Positions 16,688-29,383 of a stretch of DNA of 36,614 bases are shown one piece after another. The notes under the pieces were generated by a model. It saw only the letters and a program-made list of their open reading frames with translations, was not told the origin of the DNA and did not search any database. The translations under genes and the position numbers were made by a program. The stretch covers positions 1 to 36,614 of the forward strand of contig JBDRCZ010000053.1 in the NCBI GenBank assembly GCA_043821285.1, in the 5' to 3' direction. The first letter of the stretch is position 1; each line of letters starts with the position of its first letter. Source of the DNA: Candidatus Omnitrophota bacterium (lineage in GTDB: Bacteria > Omnitrophota > Gorgyraeia > B26-G9 > JBDRCZ01).

Positions 16688-16821
16688 ATCACACCTAATC
16701 TAAACATTTGTGGTTTTCTGTTTTTTTAACCACCGAGAACACAAAGTCCACAGAGAAATTTTATAAGTAACCTTTGCATTCTATATTTTAATACTTTTAC
16801 ATTGTTTTATATCTACTACAC

Positions 16822-16905
16822 TTTCACCACTAATTACACGAATTGTCACGAATAAAATAAATATACCCTATTCGTGTAACTCTGTGTTATCCGTGGTTTA
16901 AAAAT
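16822..16905. repeat. Palindromic CACGAAT element copy
   Basis: The sequence is ccactaattacacgaattgtcacgaataaaataaatataccctattcgtgtaactctgtgttatccgtggtttaaaa. It has the same architecture as the 14207-14288 copy. Confidence 0.75.
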
Positions 16906-17212
16906 ATCTTTTAGTCTTATCTTTTTTATCCGCAGCTCTATTTTATTTTTTAGCTACGCTACACGGATAAAACACGGATTTTTTAATAATAAAATCTTAA
17001 ACTATTTTCTGACAAGATGAACACGATTTACAAGATTTTTAAATATATTTATTTTTATCCTTTTATCCTGTTTACCTCGTTAGAAAATGCCAACTTACCC
17101 TATTAAAAAAATAAACCCTTCCAACATGATTATTACAAAACGTTTTTACTGACAATGTTATCTTTATTATTTTCTAACGGGGTTTATCGTGTTAATCTTG
17201 TCTATGTTTTTT

Positions 17213-17303
17213 TTCATTCGTGTCAATTGGTGTTATTCGTGGTTAAAACGTTTTTAGTTTCGTCTTTTCTTATCCGTGTTCAATTCGTGTCTATCCGTGG
17301 TTC
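17213..17303. repeat. CACGAAT-family right arm plus the TCCGTGTTCAATYCGTG variant
   Basis: The sequence ttttcattcgtgtcaattggtgttattcgtggttaaaa is followed by tatccgtgttcaattcgtgtctatccgtggttctg. Confidence 0.65.
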
Positions 17304-17328
17304 TGTAATTGCATTTCGCGTTGTCAAT

Positions 17329-18324
17329 TCAGGGTATTCTTCTCAGCACCGTATTACCCAACACAATCTCTAAACATATCAAAACCACCGCCGGAATCAA
17401 AAACAAATAAAACAACTCTTTATACTCCATATACCCTTTTTCTTCAATCGGAGTTTTTTCCAGCTTATCGATTGTTTTATAAATCTCGCGCAAAGACTGC
17501 GTATCCGTTGCTCTAAAATACTGCGCATTAGTTTTCGCGGCAATTTTGATTAAACTATCTTCGTCGATATCTATTTCAACAGACTGATATACAGTATTTC
17601 CAAAAAAATCTCTTGCCGGATAAGGCACCAGGCCTTTACTTCCTGCACCAATAGTATAAACCTTCACCTTTAGTGCCTGCGCGGCCTCAGCCGCGGTAAA
17701 CGGCGAGACCTTACCGGAATTATTCCTGCCGTCAGTAAGTAAAATTACCACCTTACCTTTGGCTTTTGTATCTTTCAGCCGGTCCAAAGACGACATTATC
17801 CCTGAGCCAACCGCGGTACCATCTTCGACCATACCGATTTTTACCCTTTCTAAATTCTGCAGCAGCCAGCCATAGTCTAAGGTAAGCGGGCAAACCGTAT
17901 AGGCACGGGAGCCAAAGACCACCAGTCCAATACGGTCATACTGCCGGCCGTTTATAAAATCAGTAACTACGTCTTTAACAACCTCCAGCCGGTTTTGCCG
18001 CTTATTCCCCAGTTTAAAATCCTCCGCCAGCATACTTGTAGACACATCAACTGCGAGCACAATGTCAATCCCCTCGGTTATAATCCTGGTTTCTTCCAAT
18101 GCCGACTGCGGACGAGCTAAGGCAATTACAATCAACAAAAGGGCGGCGATGCGTAAAAATATAATATTTTTACTTAATCTTACCTTAAAAGACGGTTTAA
18201 GCCCCTGCAGCAACTCACCCGAAGAAAAAATCACTGCCGGTTCTCTTTTTCTACGTTTCTGATAATATCCCGCAGCTAATACCAGCAGCAATAATATTAA
18301 AATCCAGGGATCATTAAAATGCAT
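17329..18324 (-). CDS. BatA-like vWA-domain membrane protein
   Basis: TM segments lie at the N- and C-termini. The vWA MIDAS motif is …VLAVDVSTSMLAEDFKLGNKRQNRL…. Further vWA blocks are …IGLVVFGSRAYTVCPLTLD… and …VVILLTDGRNN…. Confidence 0.85.
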   Translation of the reverse strand: MHFNDPWILILLLLVLAAGYYQKRRKREPAVIFSSGELLQGLKPSFKVRLSKNIIFLRIAALLLIVIALARPQSALEETRIITEGIDIVLAVDVSTSMLAEDFKLGNKRQNRLEVVKDVVTDFINGRQYDRIGLVVFGSRAYTVCPLTLDYGWLLQNLERVKIGMVEDGTAVGSGIMSSLDRLKDTKAKGKVVILLTDGRNNSGKVSPFTAAEAAQALKVKVYTIGAGSKGLVPYPARDFFGNTVYQSVEIDIDEDSLIKIAAKTNAQYFRATDTQSLREIYKTIDKLEKTPIEEKGYMEYKELFYLFLIPAVVLICLEIVLGNTVLRRIP

Positions 18325-18514
18325 TATAAATAATCCTTTGTTGGTTTTGTCAAAAACTACCGATATTTAATAAACATCCATAGGTTACAGGCAATCATAG
18401 ATGCCAAAGAGAAAAACGTTTGTTGGATACGGTTACGACTCTCCGCCAATTCCTTCATAAAGATTAGCTGATCTATGACTTTGTAATGAAAAATTATAAA
18501 TAAAAAAGTTCTCT

Positions 18515-19568
18515 TTATATTGCGGTACCCAACCTGTCCTGAGTAAAACAAGGAGAAAATTTTAAAAGGTGTTGATTTTTGGTTAAATATTCCTTAACCT
18601 TTTCCCTCATATGCACATAACCTTGCGCCAAAAAACCTCCGGTTCCACAACAAGGATCATAAACCGTCTCACCAACGTTAGGATCAATAACCTTAACCAT
18701 TATGCGAATAACTTCTCGCGGAGTAAAAAATTGGCCTCCGTCATTATTCTTAGCGCCCATATTCAGAAGCAAACCTTCATAAACTTGAGACAAAGTAAAC
18801 ATATGCGTATCGTCAACCTGCTCAATGGAAAGTTGATTAATCTTATCTAAAATATCCCAAAGGTTTCTTTCGGTATCAATACCGGTTTTCTCCACCGAAG
18901 AGAATACCTCACTAATTACCTTTTGACGAGATGTTGCGCCAGTCCTTTTCTCTAATTCTCTTAAATGAAGAATAAGCTCGCCATTGACAAAAGACATAAA
19001 CCGTTCTATTTTTGCCCTGGGCAATTTTCTCTAAGACCGCGCGTATGGCAGCGTCTTGATAATAACGCCTACTTGCCTCGCCACGTGTATATGGAACCAG
19101 AAGAGGCTTTGTCTTTTCGCTATCAAGAGAAAACCCCATTCCTTTTTCGTAACGGGAGCGTAATTCCTCTGGGGTAGGAATTTTATCTATGACTAAGGGT
19201 TCAGATGTTTTGCCGGTAAAACTATCGTATTCTACAAATAAATCTCCGTTACAAGAAAAAACAAAAGGCACATTATTCAACCGTGCATATTTCTTGGCCT
19301 GTTCAAGACCTTTATCTACTGGCTCATCACTCTTTTTAGCTTCGATTAAAGCAATAGAAATTGGCTGAGAGCTAATATTGACCCGGATCCGCAACAGATA
19401 ATCGGTTCTCCCCTTTTGTTTACGCCGAGGCTGACCTTTAATAATTTCAACTCCTCTTTCAGTTTCTTCGCGCCTGATAAGGTCTTCAGTCCAACCTCTT
19501 TTATGAAGCGCTGAATCGATAAATTTTGCCCTGGTATCTGCTTCGCTCAAATATTCTGCGTTATTCAT
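18515..19568 (-). pseudogene. Remnant of a restriction-modification gene. An HsdR-N/Mrr-like nuclease N-domain is joined to the N-terminal part of an N6-adenine methyltransferase. It is frameshifted and truncated at the 3' end.
   Basis: ORF 18912..19568 reads MNNAEYLSEADTRAKFIDSALHKRGW…RRYYQDAAIRAVLEKIAQGKNR, an HsdR N-terminal signature. The overlapping ORF 18515..19024 (TTG start) reads …GGQFFTPREVIRIMVKVIDPNVGETVYDPCCGTGGFLAQ, which is MTase motifs X and I. It then stops. No NPPY motif or target-recognition domain follows. The two frames can be joined at the A5 run in GGCAAAAATAG. Confidence 0.6.
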
Positions 19569-19885
19569 CTTTTATCAATCCCTCATCCGCAAAACTATAA
19601 TAATTATCATCTCCGATTATAACGTGATCCAGATAATTATTTATTCGTCCTCTTTACTTATGATTTTTCCACCACAATACCGGTAGATATTCAATCCTAC
19701 ACAAGGTGCTGGTGGCGTTCCGGTTCGTTGTCCGGTTAATTTTGTGTTTACTTCAAGGCTTATGTTTGCCTTGCCTTCCAATGCATCGAAAAACCGCCAG
19801 CCGGATTCTTCCAATAACTTATTTTTTTATATGCGTGCTTTTGCCTCTTTTGCCATCCGCTATCTTCCATTCCAACAATTTTGGG

Positions 19886-20461
19886 TCAAAGCATATCCGA
19901 TAAATCTACGGGAGCACGCATCCCTGCTGTAGCTTCTTCTTTATCAAAATGCTCCGGCTCAAAATCTCCCGCCCATCCTTTCATTTCTTCATATTCTTCA
20001 TGTTTAGGGTCGGCGAGTATTTTAAGCAATTGGTAATATCCGGGTGTTGATCCACAATCTTCCGGTGGACACGCGCGGGCGCCGTCAATACAACAAGGAT
20101 ATTTCATTCCTTTCCGTACAGGCTCTATTGCTTCCAAGATTATCGTATGCTCCCAACTATCACCAAAGTCATATGTATAGCTGAGTTTTGTCTTATCCTT
20201 AGAAAAATAATCGCTGATTTTCTTATCCTTTTCATTCCATTGTGGCGGGTCTCCAAATTCACACGCTTCCTCGCTTGCATCGCCTATTCTGAAATTTCCG
20301 GCATTGAATTCATGTAAATGTGAATTTGTCCAGCCCATCGCTTCCTGTATCATAAGATGAAACTGATAGAACGTAATATCGCTCTTAACCTCTATCATTC
20401 TCCATAGTTGAGGTAAAATATCATCAAGAACAATCTTAAACCGAAATATTTGCTTTGCCAT
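19886..20461 (-). CDS. Plasmid pRiA4b ORF-3 family protein
   Basis: Family motifs are present: …LWRMIEVKSDITFYQFHLMIQEAMGWTNSHLHEF…YTYDFGDSWEHTIILE… and the C-terminal …CIDGARACPPEDCGSTPGYYQLL. An AAAAGGAGGTG ribosome-binding site is present. Confidence 0.75.
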   Translation of the reverse strand: MAKQIFRFKIVLDDILPQLWRMIEVKSDITFYQFHLMIQEAMGWTNSHLHEFNAGNFRIGDASEEACEFGDPPQWNEKDKKISDYFSKDKTKLSYTYDFGDSWEHTIILEAIEPVRKGMKYPCCIDGARACPPEDCGSTPGYYQLLKILADPKHEEYEEMKGWAGDFEPEHFDKEEATAGMRAPVDLSDML

Positions 20462-20755
20462 ACATCCACCTCCTTTTTAAATCAAATGAAACATTATTCG
20501 TGCCATTTATCCGCGATAAATCCGTCATATTTGTGAATATTCCGCCAAATATAATTCCGCCACAAGATCGAATATCCGCCATCGTATTAGTGGAGGACAC
20601 TGGCAGGCAGACAAATGCTCTGCCCACCAACCGGTAAGTAAACTACTTCGAATCTTTTAATCTTCAAATCTTAGAATCTTCCAATCTTGTAATATTCGAA
20701 TTTTCTATGCTCAATACTCGATACGCAATACACATTACTAACTAAATCTTCATAC

Positions 20756-21778
20756 TTAAAATATTACTTCCTTCGTCTGCTCGACAAACACCCTGGCGGA
20801 ATCATAACTCGCATCAATCTCTGTTTCGGTTGGCCCATACTCGGCGAACTTTACCAAATCACAATGAGAAAGAAACGTTCTTAAGAGCCCCTTTTGTTCT
20901 ATTGAGAGCGTATTAGCATCTTTCACCTTTATTAAAAACTCCTCAGTGGTCATCTCTGGGGCGCGCAGCTCAAAGCGGTTTTCCAGGTAATGCCTAATAA
21001 TATCCGAAAGCCGCTGATGGTACTCTTTAATCCGGCCTTGCGGGACAAGTTGTTCTTGTCTGAGAATTTCCAAGTCTCGATAAGCTATTTCGTGCGCTGG
21101 CGGCGGAGGGATAATCTCATTTTTTTTCTTTTTCCTGGCCAAATAAATAACCAGCCCGGAGATAATCACAAGCACCAGCAAACCACCTATCAGATAAGAT
21201 GATATTTTTCGCGGAAAACGAACCGGGCCTTTAATATCGCGAATTTCCGCGGCATTCTTTGCCTTTTCCAAGACACTCTTAACCTCTATTTCTACCTCAT
21301 CTGTTTCAATCTCCTGCCATTCATCCCTGCCTTTTAATTTATACTTTACTACGGTTTTAGGGATTGTATACTTACCACTGGTATACGTATCTAAAACATA
21401 CCACTGTTGATAAGTAATTTTCCTAAAAAACTTTTTCTCAGAAGAACCAAAATCACGAATAGCAAAACCCGCAAGATTATCGGCAAATTTCGGCAGTTCA
21501 ACTTCTACACTATCTTTTGCCTGGACAACAATGGTATATTTTATCTTATCCCCGATAAAAACCGCATTTTTATCAACCCTGGCCTCAACCTGAACAATAC
21601 TCTGTTTCTTACCTACCTTCACATCCTGATTAGCGGCAAAAACAGGAGTAAAAAAAAGGAGTAAAAAAAGACATATTTTTATCACAGTTTTAATTAGGTC
21701 TATCTTCATATTGTCTGCTTCTTTGATAAACGACAGCCTTTGTCGTTCATCGTTATAAGTAATTATTTTTCCCGCCAA
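20756..21778 (-). CDS. Membrane protein with a signal peptide, an extracytoplasmic domain, a single TM and a cytoplasmic tail. It resembles the tail region of BatD.
   Basis: A signal peptide (ICLFLLLFFTPVFAA) is followed by a mid-protein TM (YLIGGLLVLVIISGLVIYLA) and a polybasic stretch. A poly-Pro linker comes next. The tail motif …FLSHCDLVKFAEYGP… resembles the BatD tail …FQDCDILRYSS…. Confidence 0.55.
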   Translation of the reverse strand: MAGKIITYNDERQRLSFIKEADNMKIDLIKTVIKICLFLLLFFTPVFAANQDVKVGKKQSIVQVEARVDKNAVFIGDKIKYTIVVQAKDSVEVELPKFADNLAGFAIRDFGSSEKKFFRKITYQQWYVLDTYTSGKYTIPKTVVKYKLKGRDEWQEIETDEVEIEVKSVLEKAKNAAEIRDIKGPVRFPRKISSYLIGGLLVLVIISGLVIYLARKKKKNEIIPPPPAHEIAYRDLEILRQEQLVPQGRIKEYHQRLSDIIRHYLENRFELRAPEMTTEEFLIKVKDANTLSIEQKGLLRTFLSHCDLVKFAEYGPTETEIDASYDSARVFVEQTKEVIF

Positions 21779-21876
21779 GACGCAAAGTTCGCAAAGATTT
21801 TTTAACTACAGATGATCGCCGATAAAAAAATACCGGTGATCACAGATTGTAAAACAACATTTAAGCATTTTTTTAG

Positions 21877-21972
21877 CCACGGATTCACACGGATAAACGA
21901 CAGACTTTTTAATAATCAATTTGTTTAACCTCATTTTTTATCAGTGTTCAATCCGTGAAAATCTGTGGTTTT
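21877..21972. repeat. CACGGAT-variant palindromic element
   Basis: The left part is ccacggattcacacggataaac. The right part is cagtgttcaatccgtgaaaatctgtgg, an inverted arrangement of the same heptamers. Confidence 0.65.
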
Positions 21973-22325
21973 GTCTTTTCTTTTACTTTGCAACACGTTG
22001 CATCATTTCTTGTAACCCAGATAAGAAAGAATCTATTTTCTAACAACAAATAGCACAAATATAAAATCTGATTTTATAATTTATTCATGTAAGAAGACCC
22101 AGCATTATTCGTTATTTTATCTTATTACAAATTAATGCGCAAGAAAAAATTTGGTAGGTGTGTATTTCTCCCTTGGAATTTTAATGCATATTCAGGACAC
22201 AATGTACATTAAAAAAGGAACTAAATGGCTGTTTGTATTTCTTCACCAGCCTTATGTAATTCTCCGATGGTGGGGGTTACTGGCTGTATAGTGCACTAAA
22301 GCAGGGTCTATATATTGTTTAACAG

Positions 22326-23552
22326 CTATCTGTGGAGCGTTTCTTCGGGTAACTGTGTTATAAACCGCGTTTTTTCTTTCTTCAATATATCTTGTTGAAC
22401 TGTCTCCTCTGCTCCTTTAAGTTTTTGTATGAAAACATCGATACTATTTGCACTATATGAGATTAATGCCCAATAGGAAGTGATTATCAAAAGGTCTCCT
22501 TTGGCAGAAAAAGAAATAGTATTAAATATATCTGTTTCTTTCACATGAGATAAAACATTCCGCAAAGACTCATCATGGACATTCATAGCAACCGCATAAG
22601 TAGCAATTATCCATTGTTGCTTGAGCTCTTCCGGAATAATATCTCCGAGAACTCTTTTGTAGTACTGTATCACTTTTTTAAGTGACTCATCATGGCCATT
22701 CATAGCAACCTCATAAGTAGCAATTACTAATTGTTTTTTTAGCCTAAAATCAAGTCCTTCTTTTTGCATTCCAAGTGCTTTCAGGTAAATCTTTATCGTC
22801 TCATAAGGAGTAGTGTTAGCTCTTACACAATAAAACGTGGCTATGGCAAGATTTGAACGCAATAACTTTTCTTCCTCATCACTTATATCAAGTTCTCTCA
22901 GATAACCTTCATATATATCTCTTAATTCACCAACCTTTGCTAAGACATACTTTGCTGTAATAATTTGCTTTATTCTTTCTAGAGTAAATCTGCCTTCTAT
23001 CCACCTCCAGTCATATTCCCTGCCGCCAAAGTTCCCATCTATAGGCAAATTATATTTCTCAATCTCTCCTTTATCAGTATATCGTAATGACAATCTTACT
23101 TCATATTCCAACACTAATACCCCGATTAGCCCTTTCTTTGGCTCAATATCAGGATATATCCTTATCTTTATGTCGCCTTCGCATATTTCTCCTGCATATA
23201 CAAGACCGTTTATAAGTGCATGAGCATAGTTCCGTTTTTTCGTTTCTTTGTATTCACGCTCCCAGAATTTCATGAATCTTTTATAACTTGCAGCTTCTGT
23301 TGCAATATCCCCTTCACGTGGAGACGAAACATCTGTTATTAGCTGCTCTGGCATGCGTCCTTGCGTATACAATTTAAATAATTCTTGGACTTCAGGGGTA
23401 TCTGTTTCTACGGCTGGGGCAAGATGGTTGTGCAGGCCTTTTAAACTACCTCCGGCTGCCCAAGAAATATCCATACATAGAAAGGCGTTAATTAATATAA
23501 TTGCAATTATTTTAAATAAAATTTTGGTTTTCATGTTCCACATAATTAACAC
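22326..23552 (-). CDS. Hypothetical secreted or anchored protein with internal tandem repeats of about 38 aa
   Basis: The N-terminal hydrophobic leader is …KIIAIILINAFLCMDISWAAGGSLKGLHNHLAPAV…. The repeats are LKKQLVIATYEVAMNGHDESLKKVIQYY / LKQQWIIATYAVAMNVHDESLRNVLSHV. No family was recognised. Confidence 0.6.
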   Translation of the reverse strand: MLIMWNMKTKILFKIIAIILINAFLCMDISWAAGGSLKGLHNHLAPAVETDTPEVQELFKLYTQGRMPEQLITDVSSPREGDIATEAASYKRFMKFWEREYKETKKRNYAHALINGLVYAGEICEGDIKIRIYPDIEPKKGLIGVLVLEYEVRLSLRYTDKGEIEKYNLPIDGNFGGREYDWRWIEGRFTLERIKQIITAKYVLAKVGELRDIYEGYLRELDISDEEEKLLRSNLAIATFYCVRANTTPYETIKIYLKALGMQKEGLDFRLKKQLVIATYEVAMNGHDESLKKVIQYYKRVLGDIIPEELKQQWIIATYAVAMNVHDESLRNVLSHVKETDIFNTISFSAKGDLLIITSYWALISYSANSIDVFIQKLKGAEETVQQDILKKEKTRFITQLPEETLHR

Positions 23553-23849
23553 CTACGACCAACATAATGATAAATATCCCGCCACAAAGATTGGCGGACA
23601 GGCAAATTCCAAAATCCCCGCCACACCGCATCAGTGGGCAGGCCCTCCACAAAACATCGGCGGGCAGGCAATGAATCTCTAAATAATTCAATCAAAGAAT
23701 CAAAAGGCAAAATGACAATTGAAAATTAAAATATTTTTTTTAACTTTTTCAGTTTTTCTTCGCGGCCTTCGTGGTAAAATTTTATTTTCGTGTGTTTCGT
23801 TTGTTTTTTCTGTAAATAGTAAACACAAAAGTTGACCACGTCAACTTTT

Positions 23850-25463
23850 TTAGATTGCCTGTTCTACCCCTTCTAATTTATTCACCTGCATAGAACCAAG
23901 TCTTTCTGTTAAAGATAAAACACCATGTAAGATATGTGATAGAATTGTGCGTGATAAACTATTTTTTTCTATAGGGCGGCCCATTGCTTGCAACAAACAT
24001 CGAGGGCCACCTTTTAGGCACCCGGCAACAATCGACTCAATCGGGAAAATTTGTTCAAAACCTAAATCTCGATATATCTGAGCTACAAATTGGTCTAACT
24101 GTGGTATTTCATATTGCGGTATAATAATAGACCGCTTTATTTTCCCATTCCCCGTATCTGGATAACAATCCATCACTACATTTGTATAATACAGCCCAAA
24201 TGGATTATCGGCAAAATCAATTGGCAAAGCAGGAACCCGGCGGACAGTAATTCCTTCTGCCTCTAAACTTTCCCTCACTCTTTCTAATTCCTGAACATAC
24301 TCAGATTGTTTAGCCTTTTCAATTTCTTCAGGTGTTACATCTAAAAATCCACGTAGTTGCTCGCGGGTAATATTAATAAAAGAACTCGACGCTATATTTT
24401 CAATTACTATCTCTTTTTCTTCTGGAGTGAGTGCAGCAATAATTTCCAGTGCCTTTATAGGATCAGCCAAAAGACTAGTATGCTCCCCATATTTTGTCTT
24501 ACCAATAGGTACGTGATATCGGTCATTATGTATATCAGGGCAGTCTAAAACAATAACTTGCCTTCCTGTTACTGCCTCGATTTTTCTAATAGCTTCCTCT
24601 TCTGTTAGAACCTTTTGACTTGCTATATTATAACAAGAATAATGTACTGTCTGTTTACCTACATACACATACGAACCATCAGCAGTAACATCCCCACCTT
24701 GCATGTCTAATGTCTTATCACTAAAATTATTGTCTACGATTGCATCCCAAGCATCTGTATTCATAATCTGCATGCCTACAGATCTATCAAGCCCTGTCCC
24801 TGCATCGCCCTTTATTGGAACTACAGAATATTGTTTGGTCTTTTGATTTACTAATACAATATATGGGTCTCTTGCCCACGATGAAGAAAATCCTCCCTTC
24901 ATAATAATAAAACGTAACCTCTGCTCTAAATTCTTTATATTTTTTCTTCGAAGTCCTCCCAGTGTTAGAGAAGCGCTGAGTTCAGAATTTGTAACCACTA
25001 TAAGTTTTACATCATCTCTTAATACCTCGGCCAACCTTCCTGCCATAATCGCTCCCATCTCATCCCCAACTTGAAATATAGCTGCTTCCATCATGCTATT
25101 AGAATCAGATACAATTTTAAATTCTGTAAGGTTACTTATCTTATGCGGATTTGTAGGATTGGCAATAAGTTCTGGTGGCACCTTTGGAATGGCAGTCTCT
25201 ATCTTTGACCTCGCCCTATCCAAAAATTCCAAAAGTTTCTTTTTATCAGCAAGCTCCGTTGCTACGTGTGGCACTATGCCGATACCCGCAGCCAACAGGA
25301 ACAGAAAACTTCTCCGTGAGATACAGCCGGTTGTTCGATGCTCCTTCAGTATACTCAACACCTCCCGGTATAGTCTCTCCAGAAAACTTTGAATTCCCTC
25401 AAGTAGTCCCCCCGTGACATTTTTGGCAACGGTAGGCTTGAGATCGGGCCCGGCAACACTCAT
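23850..25463 (-). CDS. Agmatine deiminase / peptidyl-arginine deiminase (PAD_porph-type) family enzyme with a Tat-type signal
   Basis: A twin-arginine motif GCISRRSFLFLLAAGIGIV lies about 45 aa from the annotated start, so the start codon is probably further downstream. A WARDPY block (the agmatine-deiminase WxRD motif) is present. The C-terminal catalytic Cys context is …KGGPRCLLQAM…. Confidence 0.65.
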   Translation of the reverse strand: MSVAGPDLKPTVAKNVTGGLLEGIQSFLERLYREVLSILKEHRTTGCISRRSFLFLLAAGIGIVPHVATELADKKKLLEFLDRARSKIETAIPKVPPELIANPTNPHKISNLTEFKIVSDSNSMMEAAIFQVGDEMGAIMAGRLAEVLRDDVKLIVVTNSELSASLTLGGLRRKNIKNLEQRLRFIIMKGGFSSSWARDPYIVLVNQKTKQYSVVPIKGDAGTGLDRSVGMQIMNTDAWDAIVDNNFSDKTLDMQGGDVTADGSYVYVGKQTVHYSCYNIASQKVLTEEEAIRKIEAVTGRQVIVLDCPDIHNDRYHVPIGKTKYGEHTSLLADPIKALEIIAALTPEEKEIVIENIASSSFINITREQLRGFLDVTPEEIEKAKQSEYVQELERVRESLEAEGITVRRVPALPIDFADNPFGLYYTNVVMDCYPDTGNGKIKRSIIIPQYEIPQLDQFVAQIYRDLGFEQIFPIESIVAGCLKGGPRCLLQAMGRPIEKNSLSRTILSHILHGVLSLTERLGSMQVNKLEGVEQAI

Positions 25464-25663
25464 CTCCGCATCCCCCGCTTCCCCATATAACCTGTAAAAT
25501 TTTCTATATTTTCAGTATTATCTAACCTTATGGCTGGGGCAAGGTGGGTATGGAGAGATTTAAGGCTGCCTACCGCGGCCCAGGCAATGTCCAAGCAGAG
25601 AAAGGCATTCACTAATATTATGGCGGTCAATCTGAACCAAATTGTACGTGTCAAATTATTCAT
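25460..25663 (-). CDS. Small ORF encoding a copy of the N-terminal leader module of the 408-aa protein, possibly a remnant
   Basis: The product (67 aa) reads …TAIILVNAFLCLDIAWAAVGSLKSLHTHLAPAI…. This is about 70% identical to residues about 15-47 of the protein encoded at 22326..23552. Its stop overlaps the deiminase start (ATGA). Confidence 0.4.
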   Translation of the reverse strand: MNNLTRTIWFRLTAIILVNAFLCLDIAWAAVGSLKSLHTHLAPAIRLDNTENIENFTGYMGKRGMRR

Positions 25664-26152
25664 ATGTTATGTCCAATGTTTTTTGAGTTTCTAATTGACC
25701 TAATTGCTCTAATCTACTAGAAACTCAAAACCACAATTAAAATTTAGAGGTTTTTTTATTCTATTTTACCTTTTTACTTTTGACTTGTACCTTTAATTCA
25801 TTCGTGAAGATTTGTGTAATTCGTGGTTGAAAAATAAAAAATATAACTACTTTTCGACAAGATTTACCTCATAAGAAAACTTCACTTGACACTGTTTTCT
25901 TATACTTGGTCTATTTTCTTTAGCTTTGTTTTAAATATATTGCCAATAATTTTAAAATCTATTTAAAAAACTATTTTTAAAAGTATACCATATATTTCGG
26001 ATTTTTCAAGGGTTTGGCAAAATTTTTTTGGTAAAAGGTGTAAAAGGTTAGCTCTTATCTGAACGGCTAATTTCCTCATTCAGATTTTAGATCGTTTAAA
26101 GCCTGCGGAAATTTTTTCGTTCTTTTTTGATGGGAAATAAAATAAGACAAAA

Positions 26153-26232
26153 CCACGGATAAATACAGATTGGACACGAATAAAAAATGAGATCAAATCA
26201 TTAGCCTTTTAAAATCCGTGTTAATCCGTGGC
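26153..26232. repeat. CACGGAT/CACGAAT-variant palindromic element
   Basis: The sequence is ccacggataaatacagattggacacgaataaaa … aaaatccgtgttaatccgtggc. Confidence 0.6.
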
Positions 26233-26247
26233 TATATTCTCTTTTAA

Positions 26248-27294
26248 TTACTTTTCTGCCTGATCCACAGCTGCATCCGATTCTTTCGCAGGATTTTTAA
26301 CATCACTTTTTGGCAGCTGATAAAAAATCTCAACAATCTGCTCTTCCAGTGCCTTTTCCAGCAAAGACTGAGTAAGTGCCTGCTGTTTCTTCTGCCGGTA
26401 TTCATATTCCACCTGATTTTTTACCTCGTTAAACTCTTTTTGACGCTTTGTGGTTTTACCATCGTCTCCTTTAACCTCTTCGACATATTTATCTTTATTA
26501 GCATTATAATAAAGCTTGAGGTCATCCGGGGTAATTTTTAATTCCTTTTCGATTTCCTGTTTCAGCAGCTGCTCAACCGCAAACTGTTTTTTAACCTGCT
26601 CAAAAAACTCTCGCGCCGCAGTATTATTATCCAGTCCAAGGCGTTTTGCTTTTAAATACAACACCTCACTAGCCACATATTGCTTAATAAAATCATATCT
26701 TGCGCCCTCAGTCTCATAATTTTTCCTCAGCCACTCCGGCATCCGGTCCATGGCATTATTTATATCCGTCTCGGTAATCTCCTCATCACCGACCTTAGCA
26801 ATAATATTTCCCATTTTCTCTTCCGGTTTTTCTAAGGCAGTACGGGTTTTAAGTTCATACTGCGCCTGCGTAGTCATACCGGCCTTCTCCAGTGCCGCAA
26901 TAACCTTCTGATTTAACTCGGCAATAAAACCAGCATTTTTATCCAACATCTCCGCGCGAAAGTAATAACTCAAGGCCTTTTCATACTCATATAACTCCAG
27001 ATACAAATTACCGAGCAAATAAGCCGTCTTGGCTAATTCTTTTCTCTCTTTTCTCCCCGCTGCCGTTAAATAATCCTCCAGCGCCTGGGCCGCTTGTTTT
27101 TTTAGGCCTTTGACCATAAGCTGATTAGCATATTCAAGCTGGTCTTCGACTGACCAGTTTCCCGGTTGTCCAACCGGCAGAGAAATCCTGCCCGGAACCT
27201 GTAAAACTAAAACCGCCAAAACTACGATACCGATAACAATTATCATATTTAACACGGGGATTTTTTTCATCATCTCAGCGCAATCTCCTTTCAC
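26248..27294 (-). CDS. Membrane-anchored protein with TPR-like and SurA-N/PpiD-like chaperone-type regions
   Basis: An N-terminal TM (IIVIGIVVLAVLVLQV) is present. TPR-like helices follow (…AYLLGNLYLELYEYEKALSYYFRA…). The segment …ITPDDLKLYYNANKDKYVEE… is typical of SurA N-terminal-like domains. The gene overlaps the DUF58 gene by 20 nt. Confidence 0.6.
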   Translation of the reverse strand: MKGDCAEMMKKIPVLNMIIVIGIVVLAVLVLQVPGRISLPVGQPGNWSVEDQLEYANQLMVKGLKKQAAQALEDYLTAAGRKERKELAKTAYLLGNLYLELYEYEKALSYYFRAEMLDKNAGFIAELNQKVIAALEKAGMTTQAQYELKTRTALEKPEEKMGNIIAKVGDEEITETDINNAMDRMPEWLRKNYETEGARYDFIKQYVASEVLYLKAKRLGLDNNTAAREFFEQVKKQFAVEQLLKQEIEKELKITPDDLKLYYNANKDKYVEEVKGDDGKTTKRQKEFNEVKNQVEYEYRQKKQQALTQSLLEKALEEQIVEIFYQLPKSDVKNPAKESDAAVDQAEK

Positions 27295-28153
27295 GCATCT
27301 TAAAAAACTTCACCAATGCCTGGCTATAAGTTTTATCCGTACGCATATCAATATTATCCACATTTATCGAACGCAGTAACCGCTCTCTTTCTTTAAAACT
27401 TTGCATAGACTTACGGCTAAACTCAGCTCTTAAGGCCGCATCAGCAGTATCCAGCAAATAACCCTCTCCGGTTTCTGCATCTTCTAATTTAATCATCCCG
27501 ATATTTGGCAGCTCGAGCTCCCGCGGGTCAGTAATCGTTATTGCGACAATATCATGCCTTTTATTGGCAACGGACAATGCCTTTTTAAAATCCTTGGCAA
27601 AAAAATCCGAAATAAGGAAAGTCACGGTTTTACGTTTTGTTACCTTATTCAAATATTCCAAAGCCACTGGTATATCCGTACCAATGCCATCGGCCTTAAA
27701 ATAGAGCATTTCCCGGATAATCCTTAAGATATGGCGCAGTCCCTTACGCGGGGGAACAAATTTTTCTATGCGATCGGTAAAAATTATCAGTCCCACCTTA
27801 TCATTATTATGCCCTGCAGAAAACGCCAAAACCGAAGAAAGCTCAGCCGCCAACTGCTGCTTCAGCCGGTTAACCGTACCAAAGCGGCACGACCGCGACA
27901 TATCCAGCATGAGCATAACTGTTAGCTCTCTTTCCTCCATAAACTTTTTAATATAGGGGTGTCCCATACGCGCAGTAACATTCCAGTCTATGGAACGGAT
28001 CTCATCCCCTGGCTGATATTCTCGCACCTCTTCAAACTCCATACCTTTACCTTTAAAAACGCTATGGTACTGTCCGGCAAACACATCCGTAACCATACGG
28101 GAGGTAGTAATCTGAATCCGCCGTATATTTTTTAAAACTTCTTTGGGAATCAT
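27275..28153 (-). CDS. DUF58 protein, the usual partner of MoxR
   Basis: The signature …EEVREYQPGDEIRSIDWNVTARMGHPYIKKF…LMLDMSRSC… is present. Confidence 0.85.
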   Translation of the reverse strand: MIPKEVLKNIRRIQITTSRMVTDVFAGQYHSVFKGKGMEFEEVREYQPGDEIRSIDWNVTARMGHPYIKKFMEERELTVMLMLDMSRSCRFGTVNRLKQQLAAELSSVLAFSAGHNNDKVGLIIFTDRIEKFVPPRKGLRHILRIIREMLYFKADGIGTDIPVALEYLNKVTKRKTVTFLISDFFAKDFKKALSVANKRHDIVAITITDPRELELPNIGMIKLEDAETGEGYLLDTADAALRAEFSRKSMQSFKERERLLRSINVDNIDMRTDKTYSQALVKFFKMRERRLR

Positions 28154-28258
28154 ATATACCTATACTCTCCTATTATCTTCCTTTGAAAATTTCTAATTGC
28201 TTCAACCTGAGCGAGCCAGAACCAAACACAATCACGCCACTTTTGGCTCGTTCAGGTT

Positions 28259-28299
28259 GTTATATAAAAACCTACGGTTTTCAAGCTTTCCCTTTTATT
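28259..28299 (-). promoter_or_regulatory. Conserved 41-bp promoter/operator box upstream of the DUF58 gene, containing the palindrome AAAACCTACGGTTTT
   Basis: The plus-strand sequence is gttatataaaaacctacggttttcaagctttcccttttatt. It is identical to the box at 29446-29486 at 40 of 41 positions. In the minus sense it reads TTGAAAACCGTAGGTTTTTATATAAC. A 16-bp stem-loop (28203-28259) lies between the box and the ribosome-binding site. Confidence 0.5.
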
Positions 28300-28387
28300 T
28301 TTTTTCTGTGATTCAGTAAACGTAACGTTACGACATACAATATACAATATACGACATACAACTGTCTTCATCTGCGATCATCTGCGT

Positions 28388-29383
28388 TTAGGGAACTTCT
28401 ATCTCCTCAAAAATCCGTTTAATTATATCTTCGGAAGTTTTTTCCTCTGCCTCCGCTTCATAACTTACAATCACCCGATGGCGCAGCACATCCGGTCCGA
28501 TAGATTTCACATCCTGCGGAGTAACATAACCTCGTCCCTGAATAAACGCATAGGCCCGCGCCGCCACGGTCAAATAAATACTTGCCCGGGGCGAGGCACC
28601 ATACTGAATAAGCCCGGAGAGGTCATTTAATTTATATTTTTCCGGGGCACGGGTAGCAAAAACAATATTTAAAATATACTGTTCAACCTTTTCATCCATA
28701 TACACCTCATCAACCACCGCTCTGGCTCTGATAATATCTTCCGGTGCAACCACGGGATTTACCGCAATCTTTTTATCCGTAAAACTCATCATCTTCAAAA
28801 TCTTATGCTCCTCCTGCATACTGGGATAGGTTAAATTTATCTTGAGCATAAACCGGTCCACCTGTGCTTCCGGCAAGGGATAAGTACCTTCTTGCTCGAT
28901 AGGGTTTTGCGTCGCCATAACCAAAAACGGCTCATCGAGTTTAAAAGTATTCTCTCCGATCGTAATCTGTCTTTCCTGCATTGCTTCCAGCAATGCACTC
29001 TGCACCTTAGCTGGCGCGCGGTTTATCTCATCGGCCAAAATAATATTGGCAAATATCGGTCCTTTTTTCGTCGTAAAAGTTCCCTCTTTAGGATTATAAA
29101 TCAATGTCCCGATAATATCCGCGGGCAGCAAATCCGGGGTAAACTGCAATCTTTGGAATTTAGTTTTAACTGTTTGCGCAAGCGTTTTAATCGAGAGCGT
29201 TTTCGCCAGTCCCGGCACCCCTTCGACCAAAATATGGCCATTGGCCAAAAGCCCGATTAACAGCCTTTCAACCAAATAATCCTGTCCCACAATCACCTTC
29301 CTAATCTCAGCCAGCACTGCCTGCACAAACCCACTTTCATTCTTAATCTTCTCATTTATTGCAGTTATCCCTTTTCCAATCAT
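28388..29383 (-). CDS. moxR: MoxR-family AAA+ ATPase
   Basis: The Walker A motif is …ILVEGVPGLAKTLSIKTLAQ…. The signature …FQRLQFTPDLLPADIIGT… and Walker B …IILADEINRAP… are present. Confidence 0.9.
   Translation of the reverse strand: MIGKGITAINEKIKNESGFVQAVLAEIRKVIVGQDYLVERLLIGLLANGHILVEGVPGLAKTLSIKTLAQTVKTKFQRLQFTPDLLPADIIGTLIYNPKEGTFTTKKGPIFANIILADEINRAPAKVQSALLEAMQERQITIGENTFKLDEPFLVMATQNPIEQEGTYPLPEAQVDRFMLKINLTYPSMQEEHKILKMMSFTDKKIAVNPVVAPEDIIRARAVVDEVYMDEKVEQYILNIVFATRAPEKYKLNDLSGLIQYGASPRASIYLTVAARAYAFIQGRGYVTPQDVKSIGPDVLRHRVIVSYEAEAEEKTSEDIIKRIFEEIEVP

What the first reader, a model, noticed from the sequence alone, without database searches (positions are those of the whole stretch)
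22326..25663. Duplicated N-terminal leader module shared by a 408-aa repeat protein and a 67-aa ORF fused to the start of a Tat-exported deiminase gene
Residues about 15-47 of the 408-aa protein (IAIILINAFLCMDISWAAGGSLKGLHNHLAPAV) are about 70% identical to the 67-aa ORF at 25460-25663 (TAIILVNAFLCLDIAWAAVGSLKSLHTHLAPAI). The DNA is conserved too (23400-23530 versus 25520-25660). The motif is a hydrophobic segment followed by WAA-x-GSLK-x-LH-x-HLAPA. I do not recognise it as a standard Sec, lipoprotein or pilin signal. The short copy ends 4 nt into the deiminase gene, which has its own twin-arginine signal (SRRSFLFLLAAG) unusually far from its annotated start. This looks like a recombination footprint that moved a leader or sorting module, or like a small leader peptide gene. 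A 9-bp-stem hairpin (25688-25730) sits in its 5'-UTR.
Basis: seen in the sequence. Interest (0 to 1): 0.5.

Follow-up and report, generated by a model that had tools for sequence, protein, structure and literature searches.

The report
Omnitrophota-wide conserved signal-peptide leader module
The two similar segments are copies of a roughly 60-residue N-terminal export leader carried by at least 26 proteins in this Omnitrophota genome and by many large multi-enzyme proteins across the phylum, and it matches no Pfam or NCBIfam model.

Summary
A profile of the leader finds 79 true cluster representatives among 1.84 billion proteins. Nearly all matches lie at residues 1-60 of proteins 65-6,383 aa long. 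At least 26 of them come from the same Candidatus Omnitrophota MAG as the window, and every named or titled source is Omnitrophota.

The module has the standard Sec layout. A basic n-region is followed by a 14-residue hydrophobic core between K/R and D, then a c-region D-I-[AS]-W-A. Small residues occupy -3 and -1 in 79 of 79 sequences. A conserved motif follows: L-[AS]-P-x-[LVI]-x-[IL]-x4-[FLV]-x3-F.

Synonymous sites between the two window copies are saturated (pS 0.71-0.75, pN 0.20-0.26). They are old paralogs under purifying selection, not a recent recombination footprint.

The 67-aa ORF is most likely the detached 5' end of the downstream gene. One extra G in a G4 or G5 run would fuse the two ORFs. 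The "Tat" segment would then sit near residue 120, where about 37 family members have a second hydrophobic segment. One homolog, P0005, has a leader-like N-terminus fused in frame.

The enzyme is only weakly deiminase-like. Tat export is not supported. Pfam, NCBIfam and the searched literature do not describe the module.

The parts
25460..25663 (-). 67-aa ORF (NCBI ABH952_06340). It consists of leader copy B and nothing else. It is most likely the detached 5' end of the downstream gene.
   Evidence: The leader HMM covers residues 2-60 at E = 4e-28.
25577..25663 (-). Copy B, signal-peptide part (M1-A29). The n-region is MNNLTRTIWFR, the h-region LTAIILVNAFLCL and the c-region DIAWA. The predicted SPase I site is A-W-A|A-V-G.
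   Evidence: Column statistics of 79 leaders. AlphaFold2 predicts a helix over residues 3-29, with block-mean pLDDT of 96 and 88 for residues 11-30.
25496..25543 (-). Copy B, conserved post-cleavage motif (L41-F56: LAPAIRLDNTENIENF).
   Evidence: L 76/79, [AS], P 62/79, [LVI], [IL], [FLV], F 52/79.
25460..25484 (-). Junction. It holds a G4 run (25481-25484), a G5 run (25472-25476) and the ATGA stop/start overlap (25460-25463). The 537-aa frame is open for 16 codons upstream of its ATG. One extra base in this stretch, for example one more G in either run, would fuse the two ORFs.
   Evidence: Three-frame translation and coordinates.
23850..25463 (-). 537-aa ORF (ABH952_06335). It belongs to a small family (P0005, P0006) with the conserved motifs SSWxRDP, DMQGGD, HNDRYH, NPFGxYxTN and GGxRCLxQ. 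It is tentatively a distant PAD_porph / agmatine-deiminase-like enzyme.
   Evidence: PF04371 matches P0005 at E = 0.0016, below the Pfam cutoff. P0004 itself has no Pfam, NCBIfam or PDB hit.
25260..25319 (-). SRRSFLFLLAAGIGIVPHVA (residues 49-68 of the 537-aa ORF). I read it as the family-typical second hydrophobic segment (TM2). In a fused protein it would sit near residue 120.
   Evidence: Hydropathy scans. The RR is not conserved in P0005 or P0006.
22326..23543 (-). 405-aa leader-bearing protein (ABH952_06330). The start is set at MWNMKTK by the family alignment. Hydropathy finds no second hydrophobic segment, so it is predicted to be exported whole.
23457..23543 (-). Copy A, signal-peptide part (M1-A29: MWNMKTKILFKIIAIILINAFLCMDISWA|AGG).
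23376..23423 (-). Copy A, post-cleavage motif (L41-F56: LAPAVETDTPEVQELF).
22350..22850 (-). Four repeats of about 40 aa in the C-terminal half of the 405-aa protein (xx[IA][AI]T[FSY][YW]... at residues about 238, 278, 318 and 357).
   Evidence: A pattern search found three of them. The fourth (QQWIIATYAVAMNVHDES) was identified by eye.
25681..25730 (-). AU-rich hairpin that ends 17 nt upstream of the 67-aa ORF start. The main stem is 15 bp. Its function is unknown.
   Evidence: The 97-nt stretch 25664-25760 that contains it folds at -22.1 kcal/mol, z = -4.29, with 0 of 200 shuffles as stable. Inverted repeat I5.
23578..23598 (-). GC-rich hairpin 34 nt upstream of the 405-aa gene start. It is the last of three GC-rich direct repeats of about 26 nt (23578-23668).
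23827..23849 (-). Terminator-like 10-bp hairpin immediately after the stop codon of the 537-aa ORF. It separates the two leader-gene units.

Best explanation
The duplicated segment is a lineage-specific N-terminal leader domain of about 60 residues. Candidatus Omnitrophota uses it on a large set of otherwise unrelated proteins, many of them very long.

The first 29-32 residues are built like a Sec/SRP signal peptide. A basic n-region ends in F-[KR]. A 14-residue hydrophobic core follows (x-I-[AS]-x-[IV]-L-I-[QN]-[AS]-F-L-x-L). The c-region is D-I-[AS]-W-A, followed by [AG]-G-[GT]. It satisfies the signal peptidase I (-3,-1) rule.

Inferred mechanism: the leader inserts N-in/C-out and is probably cleaved after A-W-A. 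The next 25-35 residues, with the conserved motif (T/H)-L-[AS]-P-x-[LVI]-x-[IL]-x4-[FLV]-x3-F, then lie on the outer side of the cytoplasmic membrane. There they presumably serve a shared step such as docking, sorting or folding. In about half of the family a second hydrophobic segment follows 60-100 residues later and re-anchors the chain. The enzyme cargo would then stay cytoplasmic. Members without that segment, such as the 405-aa repeat protein here, would be exported whole.

In the window, the 67-aa ORF is the leader of the downstream deiminase-like gene. A one-base frame change in the G4/G5 region separates it from that gene, and the change is either a real lesion or an assembly error. 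The 'Tat-like' SRRSFLFLLAAGIGIV is that gene's second hydrophobic segment.

Shown: the family, its distribution, its conserved columns, its cargo domains, its age, and the geometry of the junction. Inferred: Sec targeting, cleavage, topology, and a once-fused gene.
For: 1. Family size. A profile of three leaders searched against 1.84 billion representatives gave 81 hits at E <= 1e-3 and 25 at E <= 1e-10. Seventy-nine are true, and nearly all lie at residues 1-60 of proteins 65-6,383 aa long.

2. Same genome. P0001-P0003, P0007-P0025, P0027 and P0029-P0031 are all ABH952/MFH177 proteins of the window's MAG.

3. Taxon. Every named hit and all six genome loci are Candidatus Omnitrophota. None was found in viral contigs.

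4. Signal-peptide form. K/R at column 13 in 76/78 sequences and D at column 28 in 76/79 bracket 14 hydrophobic columns. Position -3 is A/S/V/T/C in 79/79. Position -1 is A73, S4, T1, C1. More divergent copies keep small residues at -3 and -1: AWC|G, ACA|G, CYA|A, GFA|A.

5. Topology marker. In P0012, Peptidase_M50 starts at residue 113, and HELAH sits at the C-terminal end of the hydrophobic segment at 107-125. By the established site-2-protease topology (from my own knowledge), the HExxH helix runs from outside to the cytoplasmic face. The post-leader loop is therefore extracytoplasmic.

6. Age. pS is 0.71-0.75 against pN 0.20-0.26, and 27/40 identical residues share only 12/40 codons.

7. 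Split gene. One extra base fuses the ORFs. The fused protein would have its second hydrophobic segment near residue 120, and 37 of the 79 proteins scanned have one starting at residues 72-182, mostly 90-135. P0005 carries a leader-like N-terminus in frame (HMM E = 0.01). The two other leader-only ORFs seen are plain lesions.

8. Ordinary exported proteins in the window use unrelated signals. Examples are BatD-like (MKIDLIKTVIKICLFLLLFFTPVFA|AN) and the SurA_N-like protein.
Against: 1. No signal-peptide predictor or experiment was available, so cleavage after A-W-A is inferred from rules only.

2. A conserved Gln/Asn in the middle of the hydrophobic core, a conserved Asp, and near-invariant F, L, I and W are not needed for Sec export. 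They point to an additional specific interaction.

3. K/R residues are enriched on the N-terminal flank of the second hydrophobic segment: 99 against 54 in 37 proteins. A simple stop-transfer (type I) topology predicts the opposite.

4. Some members have no second hydrophobic segment but carry SAM-dependent methyltransferase cargo, for example P0023. That cargo would have no cofactor outside the cell.

5. For the split gene, NCBI annotates two genes. ATGA overlaps are common in genuine coupled gene pairs. A GGGGGA stretch lies 7 nt upstream of the 537-aa ATG and could act as a ribosome-binding site. Short leader proteins of 118-253 aa exist in the same MAG.

6. P0005's leader is only weakly similar (12.7 bits), and it lacks the LDIAWA c-region.
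Confidence: 0.6

Rival explanations
1. The leader is the recognition tag of a dedicated Omnitrophota-specific sorting, processing or secretion pathway. The logic would resemble YSIRK or ESPR signal peptides, or the PEP-CTERM/exosortase and T9SS-CTD systems. Sec does the first step. The conserved Q/N, D, W and the LAPxLxI...F motif are then read by a specific partner. That partner routes mosaic multi-enzyme and giant proteins to an envelope structure or into prey cells.
For: Residue-level conservation goes far beyond what Sec needs. There are at least 26 copies per genome on unrelated cargo. Leader genes form tandem arrays of 3-5 in other MAGs. The cargo is nucleotide- and SAM-dependent enzymes that would need a cytoplasm: PGK, NDK, guanylate kinase, PPDK, NUDIX, GGDEF, HD_4, SF1 helicases and methyltransferases. 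The same domain repertoire is reported for Omnitrophota giant proteins implicated in predation. Ordinary exported proteins in the window lack the motif.
Against: No candidate partner gene recurs next to leader genes. The neighbours are PilZ, MFS and GH2-like genes, and these loci come from related MAGs. No co-occurrence analysis was possible. Conservation could also reflect common descent of a rapidly shuffling paralog family.
Confidence: 0.25
2. The leader is an uncleaved N-terminal signal-anchor. Its polar face (K, S, Q/N, D on one side of the helix) mediates helix-helix association in the membrane. The partner could be a common protein or other leader-bearing proteins, which would cluster many enzymes at the membrane.
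For: AlphaFold2 predicts one continuous helix over residues 3-29 with high confidence. Q/N at column 21 and D at column 28 are conserved. Some members repeat TM-[SVG]-W-A-G-[DN] segments internally, and internal signal-peptidase sites would be unexpected.
Against: Only 14 hydrophobic residues lie between the conserved K/R and D, which is short for a stable transmembrane anchor. Small residues at -3 and -1 are kept in 79/79 sequences and in divergent copies. An anchor has no need for that pattern.
Confidence: 0.2
3. The 67-aa ORF is a genuine small gene. It encodes a leader-only membrane peptide and is translationally coupled through ATGA to a separate enzyme. That enzyme has its own N-terminal signal-anchor or Tat signal.
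For: The ATGA overlap and a GGGGGA stretch upstream of the second ATG. NCBI annotates both as genes. SRRSFLF matches the core of the Tat consensus. Positive charge precedes the hydrophobic segment.
Against: Nearly every other leader gene in the loci scanned continues for at least 136 codons. The only other leader-only ORFs are a frameshift and a nonsense lesion. No relative with a separate ORF of about 67 aa was found. The RR is replaced by KK in P0005 and the region is missing in P0006. No Tat-signal model hit. The RR sits at residues 50-51, which is late for a Tat signal.
Confidence: 0.3
4. One reading: a recent recombination or duplication event copied a leader from one gene onto the start of the other and left a footprint.
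For: Two copies lie 2 kb apart on the same strand. Over evolutionary time the module has clearly been joined to unrelated cargo. The gene pair sits inside an interrupted Bat-type operon.
Against: Synonymous sites are saturated, and nucleotide identity is 81/120, no more than the protein constraint requires. Similarity starts at the start codon and does not extend into the flanks. There are at least 26 copies in the genome.
Confidence: 0.05

Closest known systems
Sec-type (signal peptidase I) signal peptides
   Same: Both have a basic n-region, a hydrophobic h-region of about 14 residues and a c-region of about 5 residues. Small residues occupy -3 and -1 (A/S-W-A) in 79/79 sequences.
   Different: Ordinary signal peptides are not conserved at residue level. 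This one keeps F-K, L-I-[QN]-A-F-L, L-D-I-A-W-A-G-G and a motif of about 16 residues in the mature N-terminus across unrelated proteins and distant genomes. Cleavage has not been demonstrated.
Specialised conserved signal peptides: YSIRK-G/S, KxYKxGKxW, ESPR (extended signal peptide region of very large autotransporters)
   Same: All are conserved sequence motifs inside or next to a Sec signal. They are shared by a subset of large surface or secreted proteins and are thought to tune the route or kinetics of export. ESPR also has two hydrophobic stretches (n1-h1-n2-h2-c) and marks very long proteins.
   Different: There is no sequence relationship, and no Pfam model for those signals hit. The taxon is different. 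The conserved part extends about 30 residues beyond the predicted cleavage site. The second hydrophobic segment lies 60-100 residues away rather than about 10. The cargo is mostly cytoplasmic-type enzymes.
Genome-wide protein-sorting tags (PEP-CTERM/exosortase, LPXTG/sortase, T9SS C-terminal domain)
   Same: The logic is the same. A short conserved tag containing a hydrophobic helix sits on dozens of otherwise unrelated proteins per genome and is restricted to a lineage.
   Different: Those tags are C-terminal and each has an identified processing enzyme. This tag is N-terminal and no partner is known.
Twin-arginine (Tat) signal peptides
   Same: SRRSFLF in the 537-aa ORF matches the S-R-R-x-F-L core and is followed by a mildly hydrophobic Gly/Ala-rich stretch.
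   Different: It lies 50 residues from the annotated start. The RR is not conserved in the two homologs. No Tat model matched. A segment at this position is a general feature of leader-bearing proteins and has no RR in the others, apart from one further Tat-like case, P0074.
Omnitrophota 'giant' or mosaic membrane-associated proteins (West-Roberts et al. 2023, bioRxiv 10.1101/2023.11.21.568195; bioRxiv 10.64898/2026.06.07.730766)
   Same: Same phylum. The domain repertoire is the same: HEAT, PPDK_N, NUDIX, GGDEF, SecA_DEAD, methyltransferases and AAA proteins. PilZ and carbohydrate-related genes are neighbours. The 2026 preprint predicts SP+TM architectures for 39% of long proteins.
   Different: Those papers, as far as their text could be searched, report predicted signal peptides generically. 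They do not describe a conserved leader family. Most leader proteins found here are 300-3,000 aa, not giants.
Porphyromonas-type peptidyl-arginine deiminase / agmatine deiminase family (PF04371)
   Same: The C-terminal part of homolog P0005 aligns weakly to PF04371. By my recollection of that family, the motifs WxRD, (D/E)xxGGD, DxHxD, YxN and GGxxC line up with it.
   Different: The score is below the Pfam threshold (18.2 against 25 bits), and the window protein itself has no hit. No usable structure model was obtained (pLDDT 44), so the fold is unconfirmed.

Membership tests
Sec/SPase I signal peptide | Positively charged n-region at the extreme N-terminus | tested here: met
   K/R is frequent at columns 5-9 and present at column 13 in 76/78 sequences. 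Matches start at residue 1-10 in nearly all hits.
Sec/SPase I signal peptide | Hydrophobic h-region of about 7-15 residues | tested here: met
   Fourteen hydrophobic columns (14-27) lie between the conserved K/R and D. They contain one conserved Q/N, which is atypical.
Sec/SPase I signal peptide | c-region with small uncharged residues at -3 and -1 | tested here: met
   Position -3 is A39, S27, V5, T4, C4. Position -1 is A73, S4, T1, C1, out of 79. Divergent copies in other loci keep the pattern.
Sec/SPase I signal peptide | Actual export and cleavage by signal peptidase I | not testable with these tools
   No predictor or experiment was available. The only indirect support for an outside location of the post-leader loop is the M50 topology marker in P0012.
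Tat signal peptide (for the 537-aa ORF) | S/T-R-R-x-F-L-K motif in the n-region of an N-terminal signal | tested here: inconclusive
   SRRSFLF is present, but at residues 49-55 of the annotated ORF. No Pfam or NCBIfam Tat-signal model hit at E <= 1.
Tat signal peptide (for the 537-aa ORF) | Conservation of the twin arginine among orthologs | tested here: not met
   P0005 has KKSF at the aligned position. P0006 lacks the segment.
Tat signal peptide (for the 537-aa ORF) | TatA/TatC machinery encoded in the genome | not tested
   Only this 36.6-kb contig was available.
Lipoprotein (SPase II) signal | Lipobox [LVI][ASTVI][GAS]C at the end of the h-region | tested here: not met
   Cys at column 26 occurs in only 28/79 sequences and is preceded by F-L, so -1 is not G/A/S.
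Prepilin / class III signal | Cleavage motif [KR]-G|[FMLA]-x-L-x-E before the hydrophobic helix | tested here: not met
   There is no conserved Gly before the helix and no Glu at +5. The conserved pair is F-[KR] followed by [LIV]-I-[AS].
YSIRK / ESPR / KxYKxGKxW specialised signal peptides | Match to the family's sequence model | tested here: not met
   No Pfam or NCBIfam family matched the leader in the 3 window proteins. None matched in 25 + 42 further leader proteins.
Double-glycine (C39 peptidase) leader | Amphipathic leader ending in a fixed G-G at -2/-1, with hydrophobic -4, -7, -12 and E at -8 | tested here: not met
   The Gly pair shifts by one column between subgroups (A-A-G-G against A-G-G-T). 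Position -7 is Asp, -8 is Leu, and the segment is uniformly hydrophobic.
PAD_porph / agmatine deiminase family (PF04371) | Significant match to the family profile | tested here: inconclusive
   P0004 has no hit at E <= 1. Homolog P0005 scores E = 0.0016 and 18.2 bits against a cutoff of 25, over the C-terminal third only.
PAD_porph / agmatine deiminase family (PF04371) | Pentein (alpha/beta propeller) fold with a C-terminal catalytic Cys | tested here: inconclusive
   An invariant GGxRC motif is present. The AlphaFold2 model was too poor (mean pLDDT 44.5) for a fold search. No PDB sequence match was found.

The most novel reading that the evidence does not exclude
The leader plus its LAPxLxI...F motif is the address tag of a so far unrecognised Omnitrophota-specific sorting or secretion pathway. 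That pathway would handle about 1% of the proteome, including the phylum's mosaic and giant multi-enzyme proteins. It would place them at a defined envelope site or deliver them into prey or host cells. This would explain why nucleotide- and SAM-dependent enzymes carry an export leader.
Probability: 0.25. Interest if true: 0.8.

Novelty: new variant of a known kind. Interest (0 to 1): 0.55.

Why it matters
Omnitrophota are widespread, uncultivated, ultrasmall bacteria, and they are suspected predators or parasites. Their unusually long mosaic proteins have drawn attention, but how those proteins are targeted is unknown.

A single sequence family marks the N-terminus of dozens of such proteins per genome, and it can be detected with a simple profile. 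That gives four practical handles:

- It provides a way to enumerate this protein class in any Omnitrophota genome.
- It predicts a cleavage site and a conserved exposed motif that N-terminal proteomics and reporter fusions can test.
- It gives a starting point for phylogenetic profiling to find a processing or docking partner, which is how exosortase and rhombosortase systems were found.
- It corrects the local annotation. The 67-aa ORF and the 'Tat signal' are parts of one leader-TM2-enzyme architecture.

Tried and rejected
- Word-indexed protein search with the leader alignment returned only the 67-aa ORF itself, so the index is unsuited to this short query.
- The first genome-contig scan, with the ABH952-type leader, found nothing. 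This MAG's species is apparently not among the representatives.
- The 49-sequence alignment was too diverse for pattern scanning. A 10-sequence subset worked.
- The look-up of encoding contigs had no record for P0002 or P0013, so other contigs of this MAG could not be read.
- AlphaFold2 of the 537-aa protein with 3 sequences gave mean pLDDT 44.5, so no fold search was run.
- PDB sequence and profile searches found nothing.
- Rfam found no family in the window.
- A viral-contig scan found no leader.
- P0028 and P0038 in the profile search are false positives. Tandem repeats that happen to contain GHLAPAIE-like strings caused them.
- The N-terminal 100 residues of the 537-aa protein and the bodies of the 405-aa and P0002 proteins show no significant similarity to other leader proteins. 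The one exception is a weak P0002-P0011 match.
- A classical -1 slippery heptamer at the junction was looked for by eye and not found.
- Literature searches for a described Omnitrophota leader motif found none.
- A dedicated neighbouring peptidase or exporter was looked for and not found.

Full report
**What is there.** The window is a contig of a Candidatus Omnitrophota MAG with NCBI locus tags ABH952_063xx. On the minus strand lie three ORFs:

- a 67-aa ORF at 25460-25663;
- a 537-aa ORF at 23850-25463, whose ATG overlaps the stop of the 67-aa ORF as ATGA;
- a 408-aa ORF at 22326-23552, after a 297-nt spacer.

The N-terminal 56-60 residues of the 67-aa and 408-aa products are clearly similar. 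Over codons 8-47 they share 27/40 residues and 81/120 nucleotides. The motif occurs only at these two places in the window.

**It is a large family, not a pair.** The 408-aa protein's only non-self hit in the word-indexed database was a third protein of the same MAG, P0002 (ABH952_07445), and the match was restricted to the leader. I searched a profile of the three leaders exhaustively against 1.84 billion cluster representatives. It returned 81 proteins at E <= 1e-3 and 25 at E <= 1e-10. Two are false positives caused by internal tandem repeats. In the other 79 the match lies at the extreme N-terminus, in proteins from 65 to 6,383 residues long.

Exact-sequence look-ups show that P0007-P0025, P0027 and P0029-P0031 all belong to the same MAG as the window. 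With the three proteins found first, this one genome encodes at least 26 leader-bearing proteins, often from adjacent genes. Every other hit that carries a name, and all six loci recovered from species-representative genomes, are Candidatus Omnitrophota. Eight more loci came from metagenomes and none from viral contigs. In several of these loci, three to five leader genes stand in tandem.

**Anatomy of the module.** Column statistics of the 79 aligned leaders show two blocks.

- **Block 1:** a short basic N-terminus is followed by F (66/78) and K/R (76/78). Fourteen hydrophobic columns come next, with L-I-[Q/N]-[A/S]-F-L at their centre (Q/N 68/79, F 76/79). Then come D (76/79), I, [A/S/V/T/C] (79/79), W (70/79) and A (73/79; otherwise S, T or C). 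The block ends in [A/G]-G-[G/T].
- **Block 2:** after a variable spacer of 8-20 residues come L (76/79), [A/S], P (62/79), x, [L/V/I], x, [I/L], four residues, [F/L/V], three residues and F (52/79).

Block 1 therefore has the canonical n-h-c layout of a Sec signal peptide with a signal peptidase I site, A/S-W-A followed by A/G. The hydrophobic core between the conserved K/R and D is only 14 residues. That is typical of a cleavable signal and short for a permanent membrane anchor. More divergent copies keep small residues at -3 and -1: AWC|G, ACA|G, CYA|A, GFA|A.

AlphaFold2 with a 49-sequence alignment predicts a confident helix for residues 3-29. The region that carries the LAP motif has no regular secondary structure and only moderate confidence. 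The module fails the defining features of lipoprotein, prepilin, Tat and double-glycine leaders. It matches no Pfam or NCBIfam model, including those for YSIRK and ESPR signals. Ordinary exported proteins in the same window use unrelated signals. Two papers on Omnitrophota long proteins mention predicted signal peptides only generically. Further literature searches found no description of the motif.

**Age.** Between the two window copies, synonymous sites are saturated (pS 0.71-0.75) while pN is 0.20-0.26. The DNA similarity is what protein-level constraint produces. It is not the trace of a recent recombination event. Similarity begins at the start codon and does not extend upstream.

**What follows the leader.** Leader proteins from this MAG carry:

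- SAM-dependent methyltransferase domains (4 of 25 proteins scanned);
- phosphoglycerate kinase;
- guanylate kinase;
- an SF1 helicase;
- an M50 site-2 protease.

Most of them have no Pfam domain at all. Leader proteins from other Omnitrophota carry HEAT repeats, DUF218, PPDK, NUDIX, NDK, GDPD, HD_4/ACT, GGDEF, SecA_DEAD and SF1 helicase domains. This is the repertoire reported for the phylum's giant proteins.

A crude hydropathy scan finds a second hydrophobic segment in 37 of the 79 proteins. It starts at residues 72-182, mostly 90-135. P0012 provides one internal topology marker. Its Peptidase_M50 domain begins at residue 113, and HELAH lies at the C-terminal end of the segment at 107-125. 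In site-2 proteases the HExxH helix runs from outside towards the cytoplasmic face (established knowledge, not tested here). The 75-residue post-leader loop of P0012 should therefore be extracytoplasmic, as expected if the leader inserts N-in/C-out.

Two things do not fit a simple type I topology:

- K/R residues are richer on the N-terminal flank of the second segment: 99 against 54.
- Some members without a second segment carry SAM-dependent cargo, for example P0023.

A subset also repeats leader-like hydrophobic segments ending in [S/V/G]-W-A-G-[D/N] internally. These points leave room for a more specific role.

**The 67-aa ORF and the 'Tat signal'.** The 537-aa frame is open for 16 codons upstream of its ATG. 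The overlap region contains a G4 run (25481-25484) and a G5 run (25472-25476). One additional base there would join the two ORFs into a protein of about 600 residues. In that protein, SRRSFLFLLAAGIGIV would sit near residue 120, which is the family-typical position of the second hydrophobic segment.

The enzyme has two detectable homologs. P0005 begins with a hydrophobic N-terminus containing I-L-I-F-A-F. LAPQSRISSQGFQAKF and a second hydrophobic segment follow, all in frame. The leader HMM matches it only weakly (E = 0.01), and its downstream neighbour starts the same way. P0006 lacks both segments, but its ORF is open to the contig edge.

In the loci scanned, all but three leader genes continue for at least 136 codons after the leader. 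The two other exceptions are plain lesions. One is a frameshift in an A6 run between block 1 and block 2 (L005). The other is a TAG in place of the conserved CAG (Gln) inside LSAPVQI (L006). The ORF after that TAG aligns to the post-leader part of an intact paralog. These lesions recur in the metagenome records that match those two MAG loci (L010 and L013), so the recurrence is not independent evidence.

I therefore consider it more likely than not (about 0.6) that the 67-aa ORF is the detached 5' end of the enzyme gene. The detachment is either a real lesion or an assembly error. A genuine coupled micro-ORF remains possible (about 0.3).

Tat export is not supported:

- The RR is KK in P0005 and the region is absent in P0006.
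- No Tat model matched.
- The motif is 50 residues from the annotated start.

**The enzyme and the repeat protein.** The 537-aa protein has no Pfam, NCBIfam or PDB sequence match. Its homolog P0005 matches PF04371 (Porphyromonas-type peptidyl-arginine deiminase) at E = 0.0016, below the Pfam threshold. The invariant motifs SSWxRDP, DMQGGD, HNDRYH, YxTN and GGxRC resemble those I recall for the agmatine deiminase/PAD family. The structure model was too poor to test the fold. 'Deiminase-like' is a reasonable but unproven label.

The 405-aa protein has four repeats of about 40 residues in its C-terminal half. It has no second hydrophobic segment and no homologs beyond the leader.

**Surroundings.** The leader gene pair sits inside a Bat-type operon that appears interrupted. 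The order on the minus strand is:

- MoxR ATPase;
- DUF58;
- a SurA_N-like protein;
- the leader genes;
- BatD;
- a PRiA4_ORF3 gene and degraded type I restriction-modification fragments;
- two BatA/VWA genes.

A stable AU-rich hairpin (15-bp main stem, z = -4.3) ends 17 nt before the 67-aa ORF. A GC-rich hairpin, the last of three 26-nt repeats, lies 34 nt before the 405-aa gene. A terminator-like hairpin follows the 537-aa stop. Rfam finds nothing. The function of these elements is unknown.

**Verdict.** It is a portable leader or sorting module, and a homologous enzyme carries one in frame. It is wrong on three points: recent recombination, the leader being outside the Sec class in form, and Tat export.

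The best-supported mechanism is a Sec-type, probably cleaved, signal peptide that exposes a conserved N-terminal motif outside the membrane. The module is used genome-wide on Omnitrophota mosaic proteins. The extreme conservation, the polar residues in the hydrophobic core and the cytoplasmic-type cargo keep open a more novel reading. In that reading the leader is the tag of a dedicated sorting or effector-delivery pathway. I rate the module a new variant of a known kind, of moderate to good interest.

Noticed in passing
window 23-1003: There is a tandem repeat of a 276-nt unit, 3.6 copies at 82% identity. The + strand ORF 278-1150 contains three near-identical units of about 92 aa, and other frames are also open. 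The real gene and strand were not resolved.
   Followed up: partly
window 15689-29383 (minus strand): A Bat/MoxR-type operon appears to be interrupted twice. The order is MoxR 28388-29383, DUF58 27275-28153, SurA_N-like 26248-27294, BatD 20756-21778, BatA/VWA 17329-18324 and BatA/VWA 15689-16687. One interruption is the leader gene pair. The other is a PRiA4_ORF3 gene (19886-20461) with overlapping HsdR_N and N6_Mtase fragments (18515-19568), which look like a degraded type I restriction-modification system.
   Followed up: partly
window 23578-23668: Three GC-rich direct repeats of about 26 nt (CCTGCCC.C..AT....TGTGG.GGG type) lie in the AT-rich 5' region of the 405-aa gene. The last one forms a 7-bp hairpin followed by a T-rich tail. 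There is no Rfam match.
   Followed up: partly
L005 12593-13004 (identical sequence in L010) and L006 912-2000 (identical sequence in L013): Leader genes in other Omnitrophota assemblies are also disrupted in or just after the leader. One has a frameshift in an A6 run between the two conserved blocks. The other has a TAG replacing the conserved CAG (Gln) of LSAPVQI. This could mean frequent decay, assembly errors, or switching in this gene family.
   Followed up: partly
L012 2518-12180; L014 2377-12110; L016 1788-12140: Tandem arrays of three to five consecutive leader-bearing genes occur in metagenomic Omnitrophota contigs. One gene in L014 is divergently oriented.
   Followed up: partly
P0047, P0053, P0054, P0056, P0084 (proteins); L006 1290-2000: Internal hydrophobic segments end in [S/V/G]-W-A-G-[D/N]. 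The leader's c-region motif therefore recurs inside some family members. This raises the question of whether these proteins are cut into pieces or thread the membrane repeatedly with a shared interface motif.
   Followed up: no
L003-L006 (for example L005 4890-5249 and 13535-19831): The neighbours of leader genes are conserved. A PilZ-domain gene lies upstream. An MFS transporter, two GH2-like TIM-barrel proteins and paralogous ORFs of about 220 aa with no Pfam match lie downstream. This matches the published neighbourhoods of Omnitrophota giant genes.
   Followed up: partly
L001 5318-6991: The gene downstream of the P0005 enzyme homolog also starts with a divergent leader (MRKIVAAIVIVAFVVTSVPC...SLLAPPNS). 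The enzyme-plus-leader-protein gene pair seen in the window therefore recurs in a distant relative. In that relative the c-region is T-S-[IV]-P-C instead of D-I-A-W-A.
   Followed up: partly
P0074 residues 67-85: A second leader protein (NCBI name 'AAA family ATPase') has a Tat-like SRSRREFLSLF shortly after the leader. Together with the window's SRRSFLF, that makes 2 of 79 members. This is too few to be a family trait, but it is unexplained.
   Followed up: no
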